Below, in pieces: positions 5,877 through 13,922 of a DNA stretch of 64,000 nt (the first letter of the stretch is position 1; every line of letters begins with the position of its first letter). Below the pieces are notes generated by a model. It saw only the letters and a program-made list of their open reading frames with translations, did no database searches and was not told the DNA's origin. This DNA comes from a virus. Lineage: Duplodnaviria; Caudoviricetes. The stretch is taken from positions 75,973 to 139,972 of the IMG/VR virus record IMGVR_UViG_3300029305_001452; one strand, 5' to 3'. Both the position numbers and the translations under genes were made by a program.

Positions 5877-5971
5877 CCACGTATAGCTCAATTGGTAGAG
5901 CGACGGATTTATGCTCCGTTTGGCACCAGATTAGTGCGAGGTTCTGGGTTCGACTCCTAGTACGTGGACCA
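5877..5971 (+). tRNA. tRNA-Ile(UAU) with long variable arm
   Basis: Acceptor CCACGTA/TACGTGG; anticodon arm ACGGA-TTTATGC-TCCGT; variable hairpin GCAC...GTGC; TTCGA; ACCA. Confidence 0.8.
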
Positions 5972-5974
5972 AAT

Positions 5975-6051
5975 GGTTCCATAGTTCAGTTGGTTAGAAC
6001 CCCCGGCTCATAACCGGGTTGTCCTCTGTTCGAGTCAGAGTGGAACCACCA
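5975..6051 (+). tRNA. tRNA(CAU), Ile2/lysidine type or Met
   Basis: Cloverleaf; CCCGG-CTCATAA-CCGGG resembles Bacillota Ile2. Confidence 0.85.
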
Positions 6052-6056
6052 AATAT

Positions 6057-6132
6057 GATCCGTTAGCTCAGTTGGTAGAGCACCAGACTTTTAATCTGGG
6101 TGTCTTGGGTTCAAATCCCAAACGGGTCACCA
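6057..6132 (+). tRNA. tRNA-Lys(UUU)
   Basis: CCAGA-CTTTTAA-TCTGG; CCA end. Confidence 0.95.
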
Positions 6133-6138
6133 TGATAT

Positions 6139-6214
6139 GCCTCCTTAGCTCAGTTGGTAGAGCAACGGACTGTTAATCCGTGTGTCGCAGGTTCGAGACC
6201 TGCAGGAGGCGCCA
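6139..6214 (+). tRNA. tRNA-Asn(GUU)
   Basis: ACGGA-CTGTTAA-TCCGT; GCCA end. Confidence 0.95.
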
Positions 6215-6290
6215 ACTCCGTTCGATTAATCGGAAAAGTCAACATCGTCCGAAGATGTAGAAATCGGATCATAACCGATACGGAGTTCCA
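6215..6290 (+). tRNA. Atypical tRNA-like RNA, anticodon CCG (Arg?)
   Basis: 76 nt; ACTCCGT/ACGGAGT acceptor; ACATC-GTCCGAA-GATGT; ATCGG-ATCATAA-CCGAT; TCCA end; non-consensus loops. Confidence 0.6.
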
Positions 6291-6452
6291 GTTAAGTTAG
6301 TTATCTGCGCAGATATGACACCTCCCAGGTTATGGCGGCTGACCTTATTTAAAAAATAAAAGCCACTCAATAGACGGTGATAATGCTTGCTAGCGGCAAA
6401 ACAACCGTCTAACATATCTTCCAGTAGCTCAGTTGAATAGAGCAACGGTCTT

Positions 6453-7070
6453 TGAAGTAAAAGGAGCTTTCTATGTGGAATATTCAAAAGATTGTGAGCA
6501 AAGGTGATTATAATTACGCTGTTGTACCAGAACATCCAAATCGTACAAAAAATAACTATGTTTTGGAACATAGAGTCGTAATGGAAAATTACCTTGGTAG
6601 ACTTTTGAATAATGATGAGGTTGTGCATCATATAAACGGCAATAAAAAAGATAACAGAATTGAAAATTTAGAGGTATTTTCTAACGAAGAACATGCAAAA
6701 CTACATGGTGCTAGAGTTGGTCATAAAATGGTAATGCTAAAATGTCCTTGGTGTCAGAAAGTATTTTCAATTGAAAAAAGACAATCTTTTTTAGATAAGC
6801 ATAATAAATATCAATGCAACTGCTGTTCTAATGAATGTCGTGGTAAATTATATAGCAGCATACAACATCATGGATTAACCGTAGATTTGCAGGAAGCTAT
6901 ATCGGAAAATCTCTTAGCGGAATATATTGAATATATTGACGAAGACAATTCCGAGGAAACCCTCTCACAATGGGGATCCGTAGAGACTATACGCTTCCCA
7001 TCTGAAATGATGATGATATAGTCCAGACTACAACATATAAATTATGGCTATGGAAACATAGAGTAGTAAG
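6453..7070 (+). mobile_element. Group I intron in the tRNA-Arg anticodon
   Basis: Follows an exon U and ends in G; core elements GTAGAGACTATA (R) and GATATAGTCC (S) form P7. Confidence 0.88.
6473..7021 (+). CDS. Intron-encoded HNH homing endonuclease
   Basis: EHRVVME...VHHINGNKKDNRIENL motif plus Zn finger; AAGGAG RBS. Confidence 0.9.
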   Translation: MWNIQKIVSKGDYNYAVVPEHPNRTKNNYVLEHRVVMENYLGRLLNNDEVVHHINGNKKDNRIENLEVFSNEEHAKLHGARVGHKMVMLKCPWCQKVFSIEKRQSFLDKHNKYQCNCCSNECRGKLYSSIQHHGLTVDLQEAISENLLAEYIEYIDEDNSEETLSQWGSVETIRFPSEMMMI

Positions 7071-7116
7071 CTAAACCGTAGGTCACAGGTTTGAGTCCTG
7101 TCTGGAAGACCAATAT

Positions 7117-7194
7117 GGCCCAGTAGACAAGTTGGATACAGTCACCAGCCTTTCACGCTGGAATTCGAGGGTTCAAATCCCTCCTGGGTCACCA
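7117..7194 (+). tRNA. tRNA-Glu(UUC)
   Basis: CCAGC-CTTTCAC-GCTGG; CCA end. Confidence 0.92.
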
Positions 7195-7199
7195 AATAT

Positions 7200-7276
7200 G
7201 GCTCCGTAGTTCAGATGGTTAGAATGCCAGCCTGTCACGCTGGAGGTCGTCGGTTCGAAACCGATCGGAGTCGCCA
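7200..7276 (+). tRNA. tRNA-Asp(GUC)
   Basis: CCAGC-CTGTCAC-GCTGG; GCCA end. Confidence 0.95.
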
Positions 7277-7293
7277 AGTAAGTGATACTTAAA

Positions 7294-7384
7294 TACTGCC
7301 TCAAAGGATTAGCCTTTCAGGAGACGGTGCCTGCACCGACTCTGTTTACTGGTGTAGATGCCGAAGTACAAGGTGCAGTAGCCA
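7294..7384 (+). ncRNA. Cloverleaf-like RNA with GCCA end
   Basis: TACTGC/GCAGTA closing stem around three hairpins. Confidence 0.45.
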
Positions 7385-7394
7385 GCAATAATAT

Positions 7395-7470
7395 GCGGTA
7401 GTAGTTCAATTGGTGGAGCCCCAGATTTCCAATCTGGCTGCTGCGAGTTCGAGTCTCGTCTACCGCTCCA
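7395..7470 (+). tRNA. tRNA-Gly(UCC)
   Basis: CCAGA-TTTCCAA-TCTGG; TCCA end. Confidence 0.92.
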
Positions 7471-7647
7471 GTAGAGAGAGTCTACTTAAAAGGTCAGCAA
7501 CAAGATTGTCTGACGCAACGTTGAAACAAATAGTCCGGGCCAACTTCGGTTATTTGTGGAGTTCATTGAGGGTTTGATGCCATCCACAAGTTGGCTAGAC
7601 AAAAGTCGAAAGAAAAGCATCAGTCTACGAAACGGAGGATATTGCCT

Positions 7648-7695
7648 ATGATTGAATGCGTAAAATCCAGCAAGGAGGAAACTCCTCCAGCATAG
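7648..7695 (+). CDS. Putative 15-aa micropeptide MIECVKSSKEETPPA
   Basis: GGAGG RBS; paralog at 10864. Confidence 0.4.
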   Translation: MIECVKSSKEETPPA

Positions 7696-7737
7696 TAGCG
7701 GGTTTCGCCGTTCCCACCAAAAACGGCGAGTTAATAT

Positions 7738-7826
7738 GGCGGGTTAATTCGGACGGCTCCGAACCTTGTCTTGAAAACAAGTGGTACCAGGGATGGTATG
7801 GGGATCGACACCTCAGCCCGTCGCCA
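7738..7826 (+). tRNA. 8/4 allo-tRNA-like tRNA-Ser(UGA)
   Basis: 8-bp acceptor; 6-bp D stem with 4-nt loop; CTTGT-CTTGAAA-ACAAG; long V arm; 4-bp T stem; GCCA. Confidence 0.8.
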
Positions 7827-7831
7827 TATAT

Positions 7832-7921
7832 GGAGAGTTACCCAAGTGGTCAAGGGGGCAGTTTGCTAAACTGCTAGGGGTTTAAAAGCCCGCGAGAGTT
7901 CGACCCTCTCACTCTCCGCCA
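7832..7921 (+). tRNA. tRNA-Ser(GCU)
   Basis: GCAGT-TTGCTAA-ACTGC; long V arm; GCCA. Confidence 0.92.
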
Positions 7922-8035
7922 TACCCCGTACATACCTGGGGTTGCATCGTGTATAAGTCTCGCATAACACTACTTATCTTGTGATGAGTTGACTGAATAA
8001 AGGTGTTATTTATCTTAAAGAAAGGAAAATATAAA

Positions 8036-8275
8036 ATGAGACTAAAGAGCATTAATGAAGTTAATGATTTTCTAGCAGTAGTTGACTCTTGCAACGGTGA
8101 TGTTTGGCTAGAATCTCAGTATGGTGATAGATTTAATCTAAAGTCAAAACTGTCACAGTATGTTGCTATTGGCGCACTACTAAGTGATAGTCAGGAAGAA
8201 CTAGAATTGTTCTGCTCTAAGGAAGACGAAGATAAGTTCTTTTCTTATTTTAGAGAGCATCCTGGTGTGAATTAA
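8036..8275 (+). CDS. HPr-fold-like small protein
   Basis: F..VVDSCNGDVWL...GDRFNLKS pattern of HPr-like proteins; canonical His15 absent. Confidence 0.6.
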   Translation: MRLKSINEVNDFLAVVDSCNGDVWLESQYGDRFNLKSKLSQYVAIGALLSDSQEELELFCSKEDEDKFFSYFREHPGVN

Positions 8276-8289
8276 GTAACACCATATAT

Positions 8290-8364
8290 AGCCCCGTGGC
8301 CAAGCGGCAAGGCGAAGGACTTTGACTCCTTTATTCACTGGTTCGAATCCAGTCGGGGCTGCCA
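8290..8364 (+). tRNA. tRNA-Gln(UUG)
   Basis: AAGGA-CTTTGAC-TCCTT; GCCA. Confidence 0.93.
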
Positions 8365-8368
8365 TAAC

Positions 8369-8442
8369 GGAGGATGTGGTGTAATGGTAGCACGCGAGTC
8401 TTGGGGTCTTGAAGCGCAGTTCGAATCTGACATCTTCCACCA
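8369..8442 (+). tRNA. tRNA-Pro(UGG), atypical (8-bp acceptor, short T stem)
   Basis: GGAGGATG/CATCTTCC; loop CTTGGGG; TTCGAAT; ACCA. Confidence 0.7.
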
Positions 8443-8553: not shown

Positions 8554-9357
8554 TTGATGGAATATTATACAAGCTCATCTGAACAAATTCGACAAGATAC
8601 ATGTGATGAGGTAGAATATGTAGAAATTAAAAATCCATTTGGTTTTATTTATATTACAACTAATTTGATAAATGGTAAAAGATATATTGGACAAAGAAAG
8701 TTTTCTGATGGGTGGACAACATATCTTGGAAGTGGAAAGAGATTTAAAACGGCTCTGAAAAAATATGGTAGAAAAAATTTTGTTAGATTAATAGTTGATA
8801 TAGGCTATTCTCGTGAAGAACTAAATGATAAAGAAATTAGTATAATAAAATTTTTAAATGCCGTTGATAGCAGAAATTTTTATAATATATCAGAAGGCGG
8901 AGAGATAAAAGGCAAAAGTGGAAAAGATGCATACTGGTATAATAAAAAAATTCCACAAGAAAGCATAGAAAAGGCAAATTTAAAAAGATATAAACCTGTT
9001 TACCAGTTCGACTTAAATGGTAATTTTATTAAGCGTTATGAGTCCGTAACACATGCTGCAAAAGAAAATAATCTTAGCAAACAAGGAATAAGTAAGTCGT
9101 GTAATGATGATAGTAAAACATGCGGTGGTTATTTTTGGTCATACAGTGACAATATTGGCTTAAGAAAATATGATCCTACCAAAAATCATAAACCAGATGA
9201 AGTATATCAATATGATTATGATGGTAAGAAATTAATTAATATTTATATATCTGCAAAAGAGGCAAGCGAAAAAACTGGAATAGCTACATACAATATATAT
9301 GCTTGTCTTTCTGGTAAGAGAAAACATGCTGGAAATTTTACTTGGAAAAAGGAGTAA
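8554..9357 (+). CDS. Free-standing GIY-YIG homing endonuclease with two NUMOD1-like repeats
   Basis: GFIYITTNLINGKRYIG, YLGSG; two VYQ[FY]DxxG repeats. Confidence 0.9.
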   Translation: MMEYYTSSSEQIRQDTCDEVEYVEIKNPFGFIYITTNLINGKRYIGQRKFSDGWTTYLGSGKRFKTALKKYGRKNFVRLIVDIGYSREELNDKEISIIKFLNAVDSRNFYNISEGGEIKGKSGKDAYWYNKKIPQESIEKANLKRYKPVYQFDLNGNFIKRYESVTHAAKENNLSKQGISKSCNDDSKTCGGYFWSYSDNIGLRKYDPTKNHKPDEVYQYDYDGKKLINIYISAKEASEKTGIATYNIYACLSGKRKHAGNFTWKKE

Positions 9358-9364
9358 TTAAATT

Positions 9365-10021
9365 ATGAGTACAAAAGAAACATGCACTATCCACAAGGCA
9401 CTTTCCGAACTGAAGACTATTGATGACCGTATCATCAAGGCCATCCGTAGTAACACCTATGTACTAGCTGTTAAGCATTCAGCAGAGAAGATTAACGGTG
9501 TGAAGGTTGACACCTGCAAGGAGAATATGAAGAGTGGCTATCAGAAGGTTACCGACCTAATAGCTCGTCGTGTTGCAATGAAGAGAGCAGTTGTTCTTTC
9601 CAATGCAACCACTAAGGTTAAGGTTGGCAATAACGAATACACCGTGGCCGAGGCAATTGAGATGAAGAATCACGGTATGGAGTTCAAGAAGACTCTACTA
9701 CAGTATCTATATACTGCATATGGTTCTGCTCAGAACGAGTTCAATAAGAACAACGATGAGGCACTTGAAAAGAAGGCAGAGCAGTATGTTCTCGCAGTGA
9801 TTGCTGCACAGCCCAAGGACTCTAAGATGTCTGTTGATAGCGAAGCAATGAAGGCACTTCGTAAGACATACATCGAGAACAACACTTATGATTTGCTTGA
9901 TCCTCTGAATGTAGCTAAGATCATGGAAGAACTTGATTCTGAAATCAACGAGTTTGAAGCTGAAATTGATGCAGCACTGTCTGTTTCCAACGCACTAACT
10001 GTGATTGAGTTCGAGTATTAA
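9365..10021 (+). CDS. Coiled-coil protein (DIP1984/DUF6847-like by pattern)
   Basis: AAGGAG RBS; IHKALSELK...RI and EIDAALSVSNA.T.I; family assignment from memory. Confidence 0.7.
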   Translation: MSTKETCTIHKALSELKTIDDRIIKAIRSNTYVLAVKHSAEKINGVKVDTCKENMKSGYQKVTDLIARRVAMKRAVVLSNATTKVKVGNNEYTVAEAIEMKNHGMEFKKTLLQYLYTAYGSAQNEFNKNNDEALEKKAEQYVLAVIAAQPKDSKMSVDSEAMKALRKTYIENNTYDLLDPLNVAKIMEELDSEINEFEAEIDAALSVSNALTVIEFEY

Positions 10022-10028
10022 TTAATCT

Positions 10029-10446
10029 GCTTGCTGCTTTTCGAAAACCTTAAACGACTACTTATCTCTTCTTTTTTAATCATTTAGAGTGATATTAATA
10101 AGTTAAATAAAATGATTACTAAACAACTTTATGTACTTGAAATACATAAAACTCTTTGCCTAAGGGTTATAAATAATAAAAGATATGATAAATTAAGATG
10201 ATCATATAATTATTAATTAATTGTAACTGTAAAGCTTAAAGTTAAAAATTCAAGACTTAAGGTTCAAGGATCAAAGTTTTATTTTGGTCAAAGGTCGTTT
10301 ATTAAAGTAGTAAAGAGGGCTAAGAAGTTATAAATAATTGAATATTATGCGGAGCCCACAAAGTTTTACAAAATCCACGGTTAAAGGTTTGGGTGAGTGG
10401 TCAAGGCCCAAAGGTGAGCCTCGTGGCTGGAAAGTAGCAAGCACCA
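10029..10446 (+). ncRNA. ~418-nt structured RNA with tRNA-like ACCA end and heptamer array
   Basis: 14-bp terminal stem GCTTGCTGCTTTTC/GGAAAGTAGCAAGC plus ACCA; several internal helices. Confidence 0.65.
10230..10278 (+). repeat. Seven tandem degenerate 7-mers
   Basis: TAAAGCT TAAAGTT AAAAATT CAAGACT TAAGGTT CAAGGAT CAAAGTT. Confidence 0.75.
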
Positions 10447-10577
10447 GATAAAAATAATAAATGTTGAGTAGTGAGTATAAAGCCATATTGAGTATGCCAC
10501 AACGTACAAACTCAAGAAAACAGTGAAGAGCTGGATAACCTTCTGTACAAAGGTTGAATTGAGAGTGGCAGAGTTTA

Positions 10578-10653
10578 GTCCAAAGATGGTGTAAGGGTAG
10601 CACACAGAAGGGTAGGCCGGCGAGGTACTGTTCGAATCAGTTGAGGGCGACCA
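10578..10653 (+). pseudogene. Degenerate tRNA-like element
   Basis: D arm GTGT..GCAC, T arm ACTG-TTCGAAT-CAGT and ACCA are present; no anticodon stem; poor acceptor. Confidence 0.55.
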
Positions 10654-10863
10654 AAAAGAAAACTCTTAAAAGTACAGAGATATGAAAAAACGATGTAACA
10701 AATGAGAACTTGGTCGGTAGAGATTAATGATTAAAGATAGACCGTTGGTGAGTCATGCGCAGACAAATCCAACCATCGTTCCCATAGATGAAATTTCTAT
10801 GGCTCAATGAATTACAAATAACATACGAAAGTGTGTTAAATAATCCAAAGGAGGACTTTGCCT

Positions 10864-10911
10864 ATGATTGCATTCGCTAAATCCACCTCGGAGGATACTC
10901 CAATCGGCTGA
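10864..10911 (+). CDS. Putative 15-aa micropeptide MIAFAKSTSEDTPIG
   Basis: AAAGGAGG RBS; paralog at 7648. Confidence 0.4.
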   Translation: MIAFAKSTSEDTPIG

Positions 10912-10950
10912 TTGGGTTCCTGGGGCAAGAACTGAAACTGCCCCTCATAT

Positions 10951-11028
10951 TGCGGAGTAGACAAGAGGTCTAAGTCGCCAGCCTCATAAGCTGGAAATCG
11001 TTGGTTCGAATCCAACCTCACGCAACCA
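10951..11028 (+). tRNA. tRNA-Met(CAU), initiator-like, bulged acceptor
   Basis: CCAGC-CTCATAA-GCTGG; ACCA. Confidence 0.8.
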
Positions 11029-11031
11029 CAT

Positions 11032-11121
11032 GCCGCAGTGGTGGAATAGGTAGACACCCGGGACTTAAAATCCCGTGAGGCTAAACCCCTCGTACCGGTT
11101 CGACCCCGGTCTGCGGCACCA
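11032..11121 (+). tRNA. tRNA-Leu(UAA)
   Basis: CGGGA-CTTAAAA-TCCCG; long V arm; ACCA. Confidence 0.95.
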
Positions 11122-11175
11122 CCTGAACAAATGGCATCGTGTTATGTGTGGCTGACCAACCTTAAGGTCATATAT

Positions 11176-11251
11176 GCCCCAGTAGCTCAACTGGCAGAGT
11201 ACTTGATTTGTAATCAAGATGTTGCAGGTTCAACTCCTGTCTGGGGCTCCA
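11176..11251 (+). tRNA. tRNA-Thr(UGU)
   Basis: CTTGA-TTTGTAA-TCAAG; TCCA. Confidence 0.93.
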
Positions 11252-11419: not shown

Positions 11420-11448
11420 TTGACAAACTTAAATTAATGCGTTATATT
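11420..11448 (+). promoter_or_regulatory. SigmaA promoter of the methyltransferase operon
   Basis: TTGACA-N17-TATATT. Confidence 0.7.
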
Positions 11449-11489: not shown

Positions 11490-13922
11490 ATGACAGAAAA
11501 GATTACAATGATAGAACTCTTCTCTGGTGTTGGAGCACAGGAAAGAGCACTACGGCAACTTAACATTCCATATGAGGTGACTCATACTTGTGATCTAGAC
11601 AAAGATGCGGTTCTTAGTTATGCTGCAATGAGAACCGACTTTGAAAATGAATTTAACTCTTATAATTTCCCATCCGTAGAAGATATGATTTCAGAATTGC
11701 AGAGTAAAAATGTTGGCTATGACTTTATGAAGGGCAAGCACACCATTACAACTCGTACATCTGTTAACAAGTTGAAGCAATATTATCTTGCGGATAAATT
11801 ATCCAAAAATCTTGGAGATATCGGAAAGATTGAAAGACTTCCTTATGCTGATATGGTTACTTACTCTTTCCCTTGTACTGATTTATCCGTGGCTGGCAAG
11901 GGTGAGGGTATGCAGAACAAGTGTGAATCTTGTGGTCATTCTTGGCCTATTGACTTTAGTAGTTCCGAAGAGGTACTAGTCTGCCCTAATTGTGGTGAAA
12001 ATGTGTCTTCTAGCACTCGTTCTGGTTTGCTAGGGCAGGTTCAGAGACTTCTATCTGTTGCTTATGAGAATAACGAATTGCCTAAGTATCTTCTTCTTGA
12101 GAATGTAAAGAATCTTGTTGGCAAGAAATTTGTTAATCAGTTCGATGCTTGGGTTAAGTGGCTTGACGGCATTGGTTATAATACATATTATCAAGTACTT
12201 AATGCGAAGCACTACGGTATCCCTCAGAATCGTGAGCGTATCTTTGCACTTTCTATTCGTAAGGACATTGATAATGGTGAATTTAAGTTCCCAAATAAAA
12301 TTCCTCTTAATATTCGCTTAAAGAATATTCTGGAAAAGAATGTTGATGAGAAGTATTATTTACCAGATGAGCGTATTGATAAAATTCTAAACTCAACATT
12401 TATTCAAGAAAAGAAACGTATTCAAATGAAGGATGTGTGCGATACACTTCTTGCACGAGACTGGAAAGATCCTAAGTGCGTACAGGTGGAAGGCGATACA
12501 AGTCCTATTAGGTTAGGTAATATTTATGATGAGAAGTTTGGCACCGGTTATGCTGGAAATGTATGGGATAAAAATGGCATATCTCCAACTCTTCAGACGG
12601 CACAAGGCGGCAATAGACAGCCGTTGGTTATTGACGAAGTCAAAGTAGAGCCGTTCATCGTAGCTTCTCGTGGTAGAAATCCAGACAATCCTTCTGATAG
12701 AACTACTGGAGCGCCCACAGAGCAAAGACTTGAGCCGAATTTTAGTGGTTGCACAAATACTCTTACATCCGTGCAAAAGGATAATTATGTTGCAGAACCT
12801 CAGGTGCTTCGTGCTGAAAGAACTGAATACGGTAAGGCCATTCGTAAGCAATATGAATCTGGAGAAGTCTATGAAAAGATTAGCAATATGAGAGAATTGA
12901 CTCCTCGGACAGATGGTGTTAGTAATACTATTACCACCTTATTAAAGGACAACTATGTTTATGAGCCTCAAGTTAAGAATGTAGGTAATATTTATCCGTC
13001 TAATGGTCAGAATGGTAATATTTATGATATTGACGGTATTAGCCCAACTATCAATGCGGGTACTGGTGTTAAGGGTTGTGGCATTGGTAGCAATAATGCT
13101 CCTAAGGTCATCGTGCCAGAATTATTAAATGGCAATTGTGCATATGAGCCACAGATGGTTATTGGAAGTATGCAAGCAAATTCATATATTGGTGATTGTA
13201 GCATTAGTCCATCTCTTACAGCTGCCATGGGAATGGGTGGCGGTCAGATACCTATGGTTGGTTATGTTACAAAAGATCCTATTATATACGATGATTATAA
13301 TAGTCGTATTAGTTCTGACCAGGATGCTATCAACACACTTACTACCAACTGCGGTGCATCTGCTGAAAGAAATGGCGTTAAGATTATTGAACCGATTGTT
13401 TGTGAAGAGCGTAGGGATGAGGGTATCCGTTTCTTTAAGGACGATTGTGTTGGCACACTAAGAACTATTGATGCATGTGGTGACAAAAGAGTTCTTGAGC
13501 CTGAGCCTCAACTAGAGTTTGTTGGTGGATTGGGTGAAAAGGATTGGGTTAAAGACGGTAAAATGTTAAGTCGTAACTACCCTCAAGGCTCCAGTGTTTA
13601 TTCCTCTGATGGAATCGCCTCTGCGTTAACTGCACAAGGTGTTGGTGGAGCTGGTGGTTATAGTGGATTATATACGGTAGAGGAAGAGCCTAAAAATATT
13701 AAGTGGCGCATTCGTAAGCTTACCCCTAAGGAGTGTTGGCGTTTAATGGGCTTTACAGATGAAGACCACGATAGAGCGTCAAAATATGTAAGTGCCTCTT
13801 CTCTATATAAGCAAGCTGGTAATTCTATTTGTACTTGTTGCCTAATTGCAATTTTTAATGCGCTATTCCTACACGATTACAGTACTTCTTATTGTGATAA
13901 GCTAGTAGATTATAATTCTTAA
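11490..13922 (+). CDS. DNA (cytosine-5)-methyltransferase with expanded, repeated variable region
   Basis: ELFSGVG, FPCTDLS, LLENVKNL, PQNRER, RKLTPKECWRLMGF, QAGNSI. Confidence 0.92.
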   Translation: MTEKITMIELFSGVGAQERALRQLNIPYEVTHTCDLDKDAVLSYAAMRTDFENEFNSYNFPSVEDMISELQSKNVGYDFMKGKHTITTRTSVNKLKQYYLADKLSKNLGDIGKIERLPYADMVTYSFPCTDLSVAGKGEGMQNKCESCGHSWPIDFSSSEEVLVCPNCGENVSSSTRSGLLGQVQRLLSVAYENNELPKYLLLENVKNLVGKKFVNQFDAWVKWLDGIGYNTYYQVLNAKHYGIPQNRERIFALSIRKDIDNGEFKFPNKIPLNIRLKNILEKNVDEKYYLPDERIDKILNSTFIQEKKRIQMKDVCDTLLARDWKDPKCVQVEGDTSPIRLGNIYDEKFGTGYAGNVWDKNGISPTLQTAQGGNRQPLVIDEVKVEPFIVASRGRNPDNPSDRTTGAPTEQRLEPNFSGCTNTLTSVQKDNYVAEPQVLRAERTEYGKAIRKQYESGEVYEKISNMRELTPRTDGVSNTITTLLKDNYVYEPQVKNVGNIYPSNGQNGNIYDIDGISPTINAGTGVKGCGIGSNNAPKVIVPELLNGNCAYEPQMVIGSMQANSYIGDCSISPSLTAAMGMGGGQIPMVGYVTKDPIIYDDYNSRISSDQDAINTLTTNCGASAERNGVKIIEPIVCEERRDEGIRFFKDDCVGTLRTIDACGDKRVLEPEPQLEFVGGLGEKDWVKDGKMLSRNYPQGSSVYSSDGIASALTAQGVGGAGGYSGLYTVEEEPKNIKWRIRKLTPKECWRLMGFTDEDHDRASKYVSASSLYKQAGNSICTCCLIAIFNALFLHDYSTSYCDKLVDYNS

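What the first reader, a model, noticed from the sequence alone, without database searches (positions are those of the whole stretch)
9365..10446. Coiled-coil protein gene followed by a ~418-nt structured RNA with a tRNA-like ACCA end and a 7x7-nt repeat array
Seen: 7 nt after the stop of the 218-aa helical protein, GCTTGCTGCTTTTC (10029-10042) pairs with GGAAAGTAGCAAGC (10429-10442), followed by ACCA like a tRNA acceptor end. Inside, AAACCTT (10045) pairs with AAGGTTT (10384) and crosses CCACG (10375)/CGTGG (10422), giving a pseudoknot. TAAACGACT (10051) pairs with GGTCGTTTA (10293), and TGTAAAGCTT (10228) pairs with AAGTTTTACA (10361). There are several local hairpins and seven in-phase heptamers at 10230-10278. 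No credible + strand ORF covers it. Inference: a protein-RNA module in which the RNA is cut out by tRNA-processing nucleases and the heptamers are repeated binding sites for an oligomer or filament of the upstream protein, or act as a decoy or template. It does not match tmRNA, RNase P or SRP features I can recognise.
Basis: partly seen in the sequence, partly recalled or inferred. Interest (0 to 1): 0.85.

Follow-up and report, generated by a model that had tools for sequence, protein, structure and literature searches.

The report
Knotted heptad-repeat phage RNA with partner gene
Directly behind a small helical-protein gene in this gut phage's tRNA cluster lies a real, doubly knotted non-coding RNA of about 412 bases with seven evenly spaced 7-base units. 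The same gene-plus-RNA pair recurs in phages from T5 relatives to Bacillus and Lactococcus phages, only its first 86 bases are catalogued, and its function is unknown.

Summary
Window 10030-10441 (+) encodes a conserved structured RNA closed by a 14-bp terminal stem, with a 7x7-nt array at 10230-10278.

On 35 diverse homologs, my structure of 57 pairs has 93% of cells paired, against 37-43% when the 3' partners are slid. 44 pairs show compensatory changes.

- The ACCA tail is not conserved.
- The pairing 10051/10293 is wrong.
- Only the first 4 bp of the 10045/10384 pairing hold.

The real knot is 10056-10062 with 10396-10402, plus 10048-10050 with 10412-10414.

Rfam holds only the 5' 86 nt, as the orphan motif RAGATH-27. 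The window copy scores below its threshold, but relatives score above it.

The 218-aa gene and the RNA go together in every complete locus I examined: 43/43 found by protein, 55/55 found by RNA, and 35/35 in bacterial assemblies. They also co-occur in three cultured phages, one of them T5-like.

The protein is a helical bundle with no Pfam family. It resembles DIP1984 weakly and is modelled as a symmetric dimer.

Best reading: a processed RNA that forms a particle with the upstream protein, which binds the heptads. This is inferred, not shown. Earlier notes of this scan describe the same module on other DNA.

The parts
9365..10021 (+). Partner gene: 218-aa helical protein (phrog_1491, named 'tail fiber protein' there without evident basis)
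   Evidence: ORF. PHROG E 3e-53. No Pfam or NCBIfam family. AF2 model with pLDDT 89, all long helices plus short strands. Top fold match 3kdq, E 0.017. Homodimer model 0.67 against controls 0.00.
10030..10441 (+). The structured RNA, from the first to the last base of the closing stem P1
   Evidence: Homologs of 327-475 nt have the same ends. Structure statistics.
10030..10043 (+). P1, 5' strand; pairs with 10428-10441
   Evidence: 14 pairs, 99.2% of cells paired, 10 pairs with changes on both sides.
10428..10441 (+). P1, 3' strand
10030..10118 (+). Stretch matching Rfam RAGATH-27 (RF03100), below threshold
   Evidence: 45.5 bits against a gathering score of 76.1, E 1e-4. Homologs in L061, L062, L115 and L124 score 87-97 bits at the same place.
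10044..10062 (+). Conserved joining strand that threads into the 3' domain. 10048-10050 pairs with 10412-10414. 10052-10054 may pair with 10388-10390. 10056-10062 pairs with 10396-10402.
   Evidence: Helix 4: 7 of 7 pairs covary, 98.4% paired. Helix 2: 3 of 3 covary, 91% paired. Helix 3: invariant, so untestable.
10063..10117 (+). H-type pseudoknot. S1 is 10063-10070 with 10087-10094. S2 is 10078-10084 with 10111-10117. A U-rich first loop and an A-rich last loop.
   Evidence: S1: 7 of 7 pairs covary, 90.6% paired. S2: 7 of 7 covary, but only 68% paired in this alignment, because the hairpin varies in length.
10118..10225 (+). Variable region of local hairpins. In other clades it carries a tRNA-shaped insert.
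   Evidence: Poorly alignable. ARAGORN calls tRNA-like genes inside the RNAs of L114, L120 and L059.
10230..10278 (+). Array of seven 7-nt units, consensus Y-A-A-R-G-N-U
   Evidence: Present in register in all 35 representatives. Positions 2, 3 and 7 are 91-94% conserved. No covarying partner found.
10279..10316 (+). Linker with three more AAAG-type units, slightly out of phase
   Evidence: Conserved blocks.
10317..10357 (+). Optional hairpin, 10317-10320 with 10354-10357. Present in this clade only.
   Evidence: 94% paired where present, absent in 18-19 of 35.
10358..10427 (+). Conserved 3' domain. Pa is 10375-10379 with 10422-10426. Pb is 10385-10387 with 10419-10421. Pc is 10391-10394 with 10406-10409. 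The loop of Pc forms the knot.
   Evidence: Pa 100%, Pb 98%, Pc 92% paired, each with covarying pairs.
10443..10446 (+). ACCA after P1. Not a conserved feature.
   Evidence: Only the window and L020 have it.

Best explanation
Shown:
- 10030-10441 encodes a member of a widespread phage RNA family of 327-475 nt.
- A 14-bp stem joins its two ends.
- The strand just after the 5' half of that stem pairs into the loop and a bulge of the 3' hairpin domain. Together with a separate H-type pseudoknot, this gives a doubly knotted core.
- A run of seven Y-A-A-R-G-N-U units has no conserved pairing partner.
- The RNA always lies downstream of, and on the same strand as, a homolog of the 218-aa gene.

Inferred:
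- Gene and RNA are made as one transcript. Only 8 nt separate the stop codon from P1, and no promoter-like site lies between the gene and the RNA.
- The RNA is then trimmed out. In many relatives RNase P, cutting the tRNA that follows directly, would do this.
- The folded core holds the heptad tract out as a single strand.
- The upstream protein, which is modelled as a symmetric dimer, binds that tract unit by unit and forms a discrete protein-RNA particle.
- Its place in tRNA clusters, and the tRNA-shaped insert in other clades, suggest that the particle acts on or beside tRNA metabolism during infection. The activity itself is unknown.
For: Structure:
- 93.1% of cells paired against 37-43% when slid, 44 of 57 pairs with compensatory changes, 0 of 500 shuffles as high.
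- The covariation scan found the knot on its own.

Coupling of gene and RNA:
- All 43 loci found by the protein carry the RNA, 41 of them directly after the stop codon. L038 and L039 carry it 280 nt on, behind an inserted small ORF.
- 55 of 55 loci found by an RNA-only motif have the protein gene 7-40 nt upstream.
- 35 of 35 complete loci in bacterial assemblies have the RNA.
- Three cultured phages, DT57C (T5-like), JBP901 and AM1, have an unannotated gap of 440-500 nt holding it.

Array: conserved in register in all clades.

Protein self-association: ipSAE 0.67 against a best control of 0.00. Runs agree in at least 97% of contacts and the partner's pLDDT is at least 88. This mark was reached by 20 of 30 proteins solved as pairs of one chain and by 1 of 23 solved as single chains. 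The model supports pairing but does not show it.

tRNA link: tRNAs abut the RNA in many relatives.
Against: - No binding between the protein and the RNA was tested or can be tested with these tools.
- The protein has no recognisable RNA-binding domain.
- The strongly conserved unpaired bases of the knotted core look more like a ribozyme or ligand pocket than a passive scaffold.
- Gene adjacency could reflect co-expression alone.
- Transcription is not shown. RNA-library contigs of relatives cover the region, but they may hold DNA.
- In Lactococcus phage AM1 the unit reads Y-A-U-A-G-N-U, so the recognised bases are not fixed across the family.
Confidence: 0.5

Rival explanations
1. The RNA is the active part: a ribozyme, or an RNA-only assembly in the manner of ROOL or GOLLD. 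The protein would be a folding helper or cofactor, as in RNase P, rather than a partner that reads the heptads.
For: - A highly conserved, doubly knotted core with invariant unpaired bases.
- Its place beside tRNAs, as for ROOL and GOLLD (own knowledge; the cryo-EM preprint 10.1101/2024.12.08.627333 is listed but I did not read it).
- The Rfam name marks the neighbouring gene family as one found near twister and hammerhead ribozymes (reading of the acronym from my own knowledge).
Against: - No match to any ribozyme family in Rfam.
- Strict pairing with one protein family is unusual for self-cleaving ribozymes.
- No cleavage or assembly data.
Confidence: 0.2
2. A decoy or sponge. The heptad tract, and the tRNA-shaped insert in other clades, would soak up a host factor such as a tRNA-targeting defence nuclease or another RNA-binding protein. 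The upstream protein would protect or load the RNA.
For: - The RNA sits in phage tRNA arrays, and in T5-like phages.
- tRNA-like inserts occur inside the RNA.
- Repeated short units are typical of sponge RNAs such as CsrB (own knowledge).
Against: - No candidate host target is identified.
- The units differ between clades (A-A-R against A-U-A).
- The elaborate conserved core is not needed for a sponge.
Confidence: 0.12
3. A cis-acting 3' UTR element that stabilises or regulates the mRNA of the upstream gene, with no life of its own.
For: - Same strand, 7-40 nt after the stop codon, with no promoter-like site in the gap.
- One RNA-library contig spans gene and RNA.
Against: - About 410 nt with two pseudoknots and a closing stem is far beyond any known 3' stabiliser.
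- The RNA is kept intact when another ORF separates it from the gene (L038, L039, L168).
- tRNAs downstream imply that the transcript is cut apart there.
Confidence: 0.1
4. Not an RNA at all: a DNA-level feature such as protein-binding iterons or an origin, or chance structure.
For: Short A-rich repeats can be DNA binding sites.
Against: - Compensatory changes keep G-U pairs, which work on one strand only (for example 28 of 35 G-U at one P1 pair).
- The orientation relative to the gene is fixed.
Confidence: 0.02

Closest known systems
RAGATH-27 RNA motif (Rfam RF03100; orphan candidate sRNA of 86 positions, function unknown)
   Same: The first 89 nt of the window RNA align to the whole model. 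True members above threshold sit at the same place in homologous RNAs behind the same gene.
   Different: The Rfam model holds one hairpin and treats the 5' 47 nt as unpaired. Here those bases form P1, two long-range knots and S1, and the RNA runs on for over 300 nt more, including the heptad array. The window copy itself scores 45.5 bits, below the 76.1 threshold.
ROOL and GOLLD RNAs (Rfam RF03087, RF01998): large ornate RNAs of phages and bacteria, often beside tRNAs
   Same: Large size, complex conserved folds, phage and tRNA-cluster context, unknown function.
   Different: No sequence or structure match. Those RNAs are described as RNA-only assemblies without an obligate protein gene (title and abstract listed). 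This RNA has an invariable partner gene and a 7-nt array.
Ring or oligomer proteins that read spaced triplets on single-stranded RNA: TRAP (11 triplets, 2-3 nt spacers) and HutP (UAG every 7 nt)
   Same: Evenly spaced short conserved units (A-A-R plus U, period 7) on an apparently unpaired tract. This is a working analogy for how the array could be read (own knowledge).
   Different: No homology of the protein to TRAP or HutP. Those RNAs are mRNA leaders that control termination, not closed knotted RNAs.
DIP1984 protein of Corynebacterium diphtheriae (PDB 3kdq, function unknown; Pfam DUF6847 as a lead)
   Same: Best structural match of the partner protein (Foldseek probability 1.0, E 0.017). 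A nearby Atlas cluster carries DUF6847 in 15% of its members.
   Different: TM-scores of only 0.37/0.50. No Pfam hit by sequence. 153 aa against 218 aa. No function is known, so the match explains nothing.

Membership tests
RAGATH-27 (RF03100) | Score at or above the curated gathering score of 76.1 bits | tested here: not met
   45.5 bits, E 1e-4, full-length match 1-86 at 10030-10118.
RAGATH-27 (RF03100) | Homology to bona fide members: same position, same flanking gene, alignable | tested here: met
   Members at 87-97 bits form the 5' end of RNAs that align with the window RNA end to end and follow the same gene.
tRNA-like or tmRNA | Acceptor stem with conserved CCA end, T-arm, and a tag reading frame for tmRNA | tested here: not met
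   ARAGORN and Rfam find none at 10029-10446. ACCA is not conserved.
RNase P RNA | P4 pseudoknot with the conserved regions CR-I and CR-V; match to an Rfam RNase P model | tested here: not met
   No RNase P match up to E 10. The stretch that looks like CR-V is instead a covarying local hairpin, 10375-10379 with 10422-10426.
ROOL / GOLLD | Match to RF03087 or RF01998 | tested here: not met
   No match up to E 10.
Self-cleaving ribozymes (twister, hammerhead, pistol, hatchet) | Match to the family model; cleavage in vitro | tested here: not met
   No Rfam match. Cleavage cannot be tested with these tools.
Protein-RNA particle with the upstream protein | Direct, specific binding of the 218-aa protein to the RNA | not testable with these tools
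   Only indirect evidence: the gene pair is kept in all complete loci, and there is a homodimer model.
DIP1984 / DUF6847 protein family | Pfam hit above threshold | tested here: not met
   0 of 25 members hit it. Only a weak fold match to 3kdq.

The most novel reading that the evidence does not exclude
The RNA may be joined head to tail into a circle in the cell, and the circular knotted RNA with its partner protein may be a new kind of phage particle acting in the conflict over tRNAs.

The hint is one contig in one bovine-gut RNA library. It runs from 10441, the last base of P1, through 18 other letters straight into 10030, the first base of P1, at depth 56. That head-to-tail order was not found as DNA in about 100 loci, in 2.9 million viral contigs, or in 241 million metagenome records.
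Probability: 0.1. Interest if true: 0.9.

Novelty: new variant of a known kind. Interest (0 to 1): 0.7.

Why it matters
A large, intricately knotted RNA with an obligate protein partner is present in hundreds of phage genomes. These include relatives of the classic phage T5, Bacillus and Lactococcus phages, and many gut bacterial assemblies. It has gone unannotated apart from an 86-nt fragment.

If it forms a particle, it would join the short list of phage ribonucleoproteins. It would also give a handle on why phages carry tRNA clusters. Because cultured, tractable phages have it, the function can be tested directly by deletion and pull-down.

For annotation, it shows that the Rfam family RAGATH-27 should be extended to the full RNA.

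Tried and rejected
- Tandem Repeats Finder reports no array. The units are too degenerate for it, and a position-specific count shows them.
- An RNase P-like reading of the 3' motif: rejected, because the two halves pair locally with covariation.
- Heptads as complements of the tRNA-Lys anticodon loop (A-A-R read as Lys codons). This is my own idea. It does not fit: position 6 is rarely G, and AM1 has A-U-A units.
- Pfam and NCBIfam on 25 family members: no consistent family.
- Foldseek against the PDB: nothing at E of 0.001 or better.
- Literature searches for RAGATH-27, DIP1984, the T5 gene names and T5 non-coding RNA found nothing on this RNA. The 2017 survey's main text does not mention RAGATH, and its supplements are not held.
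- Searches used a wrongly spaced pattern and count for nothing. The corrected scans found no head-to-tail DNA copy.
- No RtcB, Rnl2-type or T4 Rnl1-type ligase in the phage record, which is 87% complete. The control for PF09511 rang nowhere, so that search is uninformative.
- The look-up of encoding contigs on P0005 returned no DNA.
- RNA-library contigs: all shares were small (0.04-0.08), the contigs come from relatives that are 85-95% alike, and they may contain DNA. So they do not show transcription, strand or ends.
- Blastn of the whole region found only one weak phage match, and 10447-10840 found none.

Full report
CONTEXT

The window is the right-hand 64 kb of a 140-kb viral record. The finding lies in a cluster of 14 tRNA genes, at 5877-8442 and 10951-11251. 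The cluster is interrupted by an HNH homing endonuclease (6473-7021), a GIY-YIG homing endonuclease (8554-9357) and a drum RNA (7516-7625).

The 218-aa ORF at 9365-10021 starts 8 nt after the GIY-YIG gene. About 930 nt with no + strand ORF of 40 aa or more follow it, up to tRNA-Met at 10951.

THE OBSERVATION

- The minimum-energy fold of 10029-10446 keeps the 14-bp terminal stem. It is more stable than all 100 shuffles (z = -4.1).
- Rfam at its curated thresholds finds nothing there.
- With permissive thresholds, the only real signal is a full-length but sub-threshold match of 10030-10118 to RAGATH-27: 45.5 bits against 76.1, E 1e-4.

HOMOLOGS AND STRUCTURE

A protein-based scan of IMG/VR gave 43 loci with 47-78% identical proteins.
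- In 41 of them the same 5' motif starts within a few bases of the stop codon. A perfectly complementary 3' strand lies 334-458 nt further on.
- The other two, L038 and L039, have the RNA 280 nt downstream, behind an inserted small ORF.

A second scan was independent of the protein. It used a 16-base pattern from the conserved 3' domain and, after filtering with nhmmer, brought in about 60 more RNAs from more distant clades.
- Their closing stems are 13 of 13 paired although the sequences differ widely.
- Lengths range from 327 to 475 nt.

I reduced the set to 35 representatives under 93% identity and scanned all column pairs for stacked, covarying pairs. This recovered P1 and the local hairpins.

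On the tool's own alignment of the 35 sequences (A3), my structure of 57 pairs scored as follows:
- 93.1% of cells paired, against 37-43% when the 3' partners are slid by 1-3 columns.
- 44 pairs with changes on both sides.
- A covariation score of 0.588 against 0.214 in shuffles (0 of 500 as high).
- The 7-bp knot is 98.4% paired with all seven pairs covarying.

The RNA therefore has the following parts:
- a closing stem P1;
- a conserved joining strand that threads into the loop and bulge of a three-helix 3' domain;
- a separate H-type pseudoknot (S1 and S2) with a U-rich first loop and an A-rich last loop;
- a variable hairpin region;
- the heptad tract;
- in this clade only, an extra hairpin.

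- 10051/10293 fails, at 51% paired.
- 10045/10384 keeps only four invariant pairs. Its extension competes with the covarying local helix 10385-10387 with 10419-10421.
- 10228/10361 is 85% paired but has no compensatory change, so it stays possible.
- ACCA after P1 is seen only in the window and in L020, so a tRNA-like end is not a feature of the family.

THE HEPTADS

All 35 representatives carry the tract in the same place and register.
- The consensus is Y-A-A-R-G-N-U. Positions 2, 3 and 7 are 94%, 93% and 91% conserved.
- The best in-phase score averages 19.4 of 21, against 13.0 in shuffled sequences.
- No column of the tract covaries with any other column, apart from the possible pairing of the first unit noted above. 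The tract is most simply read as a single strand displayed by the folded core.
- Three or four further AAAG-type units follow it slightly out of phase.

RELATION TO RFAM

In L061, L062, L115 and L124 the first 84-87 nt of the homologous RNA are bona fide RAGATH-27 matches at 87-97 bits. The Rfam family is therefore the 5' fragment of this larger RNA. The part that the model treats as unpaired is what forms P1, the knots and S1.

I found no paper describing the full RNA.

THE GENE PAIR

- Every RNA found by the RNA-only pattern has a homolog of the 218-aa protein ending 7-40 nt upstream on the same strand: 55 of 55, with phmmer E from 1e-13 (truncated ORFs) to 1e-103.
- Every locus found by the protein has the RNA.
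- In GTDB species genomes, 36 loci encode the protein. These are mostly Clostridia such as Lachnospiraceae, Oscillospiraceae, Ruminococcus, Flavonifractor and Flintibacter, plus some Bacteroidota and others. The 35 loci that are not cut off all have the RNA just downstream.
- 13 of the 20 loci checked have tRNA genes nearby, often starting 8-10 nt after the RNA.
- The protein is encoded in 741 cultured phage records.
- In three cultured phages that I opened, an unannotated gap of 440-500 nt follows the gene. These are the T5-like DT57C (homolog of T5.085), Bacillus phage JBP901 and Lactococcus phage AM1.
- Each gap holds a closing stem and the same 3' domain. DT57C and AM1 also show in-phase units: 18 of 21 in DT57C, and 15 of 21 in AM1, with the variant unit Y-A-U-A-G-N-U. 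The scripted count found no clear array in JBP901 (12 of 21), where A-A-A-G-type units can be read by eye. In DT57C the 7-bp knot can also be read directly.

This agrees with earlier notes of this scan on other DNA, which I used as leads and re-tested here.

THE PROTEIN

- No Pfam or NCBIfam family fits it. The PHROG label 'tail fiber protein' has no visible basis.
- AlphaFold2 on 25 homologs gives a confident model (pLDDT 89) of long helices with short strands at both ends.
- The best solved match is the uncharacterised DIP1984 protein, 3kdq. The match is weak: E 0.017, TM 0.37/0.50.
- A two-copy model gives a large symmetric interface. ipSAE is 0.67 against a best control of 0.00, runs agree in at least 97% of contacts, and the partner's pLDDT is at least 88.
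- That mark was reached by 20 of 30 proteins solved as pairs of one chain and by 1 of 23 solved as single chains. The model supports pairing but does not show it.

EXPRESSION

Nine RNA-library runs and two runs of guessed kind, from four studies, hold small shares of the region. Contigs laid from four of those runs, from relatives 85-95% alike, cover the gene and the RNA. One 2090-nt contig spans both. Contigs cannot show strand, ends or level, and RNA libraries can contain DNA. Transcription is therefore plausible but not shown.

One item stands out. A contig in one run goes from 10441 through 18 unrelated letters back to 10030, which are exactly the two ends of P1, at depth 56 (table 5c). 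No tandem copy exists among my loci. With a corrected pattern, no head-to-tail DNA arrangement was found in IMG/VR or in the JGI metagenome records. This could mean a circular RNA, an unseen tandem copy, or a reverse-transcription or assembly artefact at ends held together by P1. I treat it as an unexplained hint.

HOW IT MOST LIKELY WORKS

Shown: a conserved, doubly knotted RNA with a displayed heptad tract, tied to one protein family.

Inferred:
- The RNA is co-transcribed with the gene.
- It is released by processing. Where a tRNA follows directly, RNase P would set the 3' end.
- It is bound by the dimer-forming upstream protein along the heptads, giving a defined particle.

The tRNA-cluster context, and the tRNA-shaped inserts inside the RNA in other clades, point to a role linked to tRNAs. 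That role is not known.

The main rival is that the RNA itself is the active part and the protein a cofactor. A sponge or a cis-acting 3' UTR element is less likely. A DNA-level reading is excluded by strand-specific G-U pairs.

VERDICT

It is a much larger and protein-linked form of an orphan Rfam motif. It is already noted several times by this scan on other genomes, and it is absent from the literature I could search.

Noticed in passing
window 10447-10835: About 390 nt between the RNA and a conserved block starting near 10838 are absent in close relatives (L149, L141, L057), where that block follows the RNA directly. The insert has no ORF, no Rfam match and no phage blastn match. It holds a T-arm-like hairpin followed by an acceptor-like strand and ACCA (about 10615-10651). 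An RNA-library contig joins 10808 back to 10452.
   Followed up: partly
window 7516-7625: A drum RNA (RF02958, 69 bits against 43) lies inside the upstream tRNA array. It is another orphan structured RNA of phage tRNA clusters.
   Followed up: no
window 6473-7021 and 8554-9357: Two homing endonuclease genes (HNH; GIY-YIG with NUMOD domains) are interleaved with the tRNA genes. The GIY-YIG gene ends 8 nt before the partner gene.
   Followed up: no
L114 1793-1866, L120 2511-2585, L059 395-467 (all minus strand): In a distant clade the variable region of the homologous RNA contains a tRNA-shaped element that ARAGORN calls as a tRNA (Gly-GCC, Tyr-AUA, or undetermined). If RNase P and RNase Z cut it, the RNA would be split into two pieces held together by P1 and the knots.
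   Followed up: partly
window 10838-10950: A conserved block with a Shine-Dalgarno-like run and an ATG opens a 15-codon ORF just before tRNA-Met. It is conserved in relatives right after their RNA. It could be a small peptide or an RNA element.
   Followed up: no
window 11490-13922: An 810-aa protein with a C-5 cytosine DNA methyltransferase domain follows the second tRNA group and a strong promoter-like site (11420-11448).
   Followed up: no
L038 3650-3900: A small ORF with a lipoprotein-like signal sequence is inserted between the partner gene and the RNA in two loci. This shows that the RNA does not need to touch the stop codon.
   Followed up: partly
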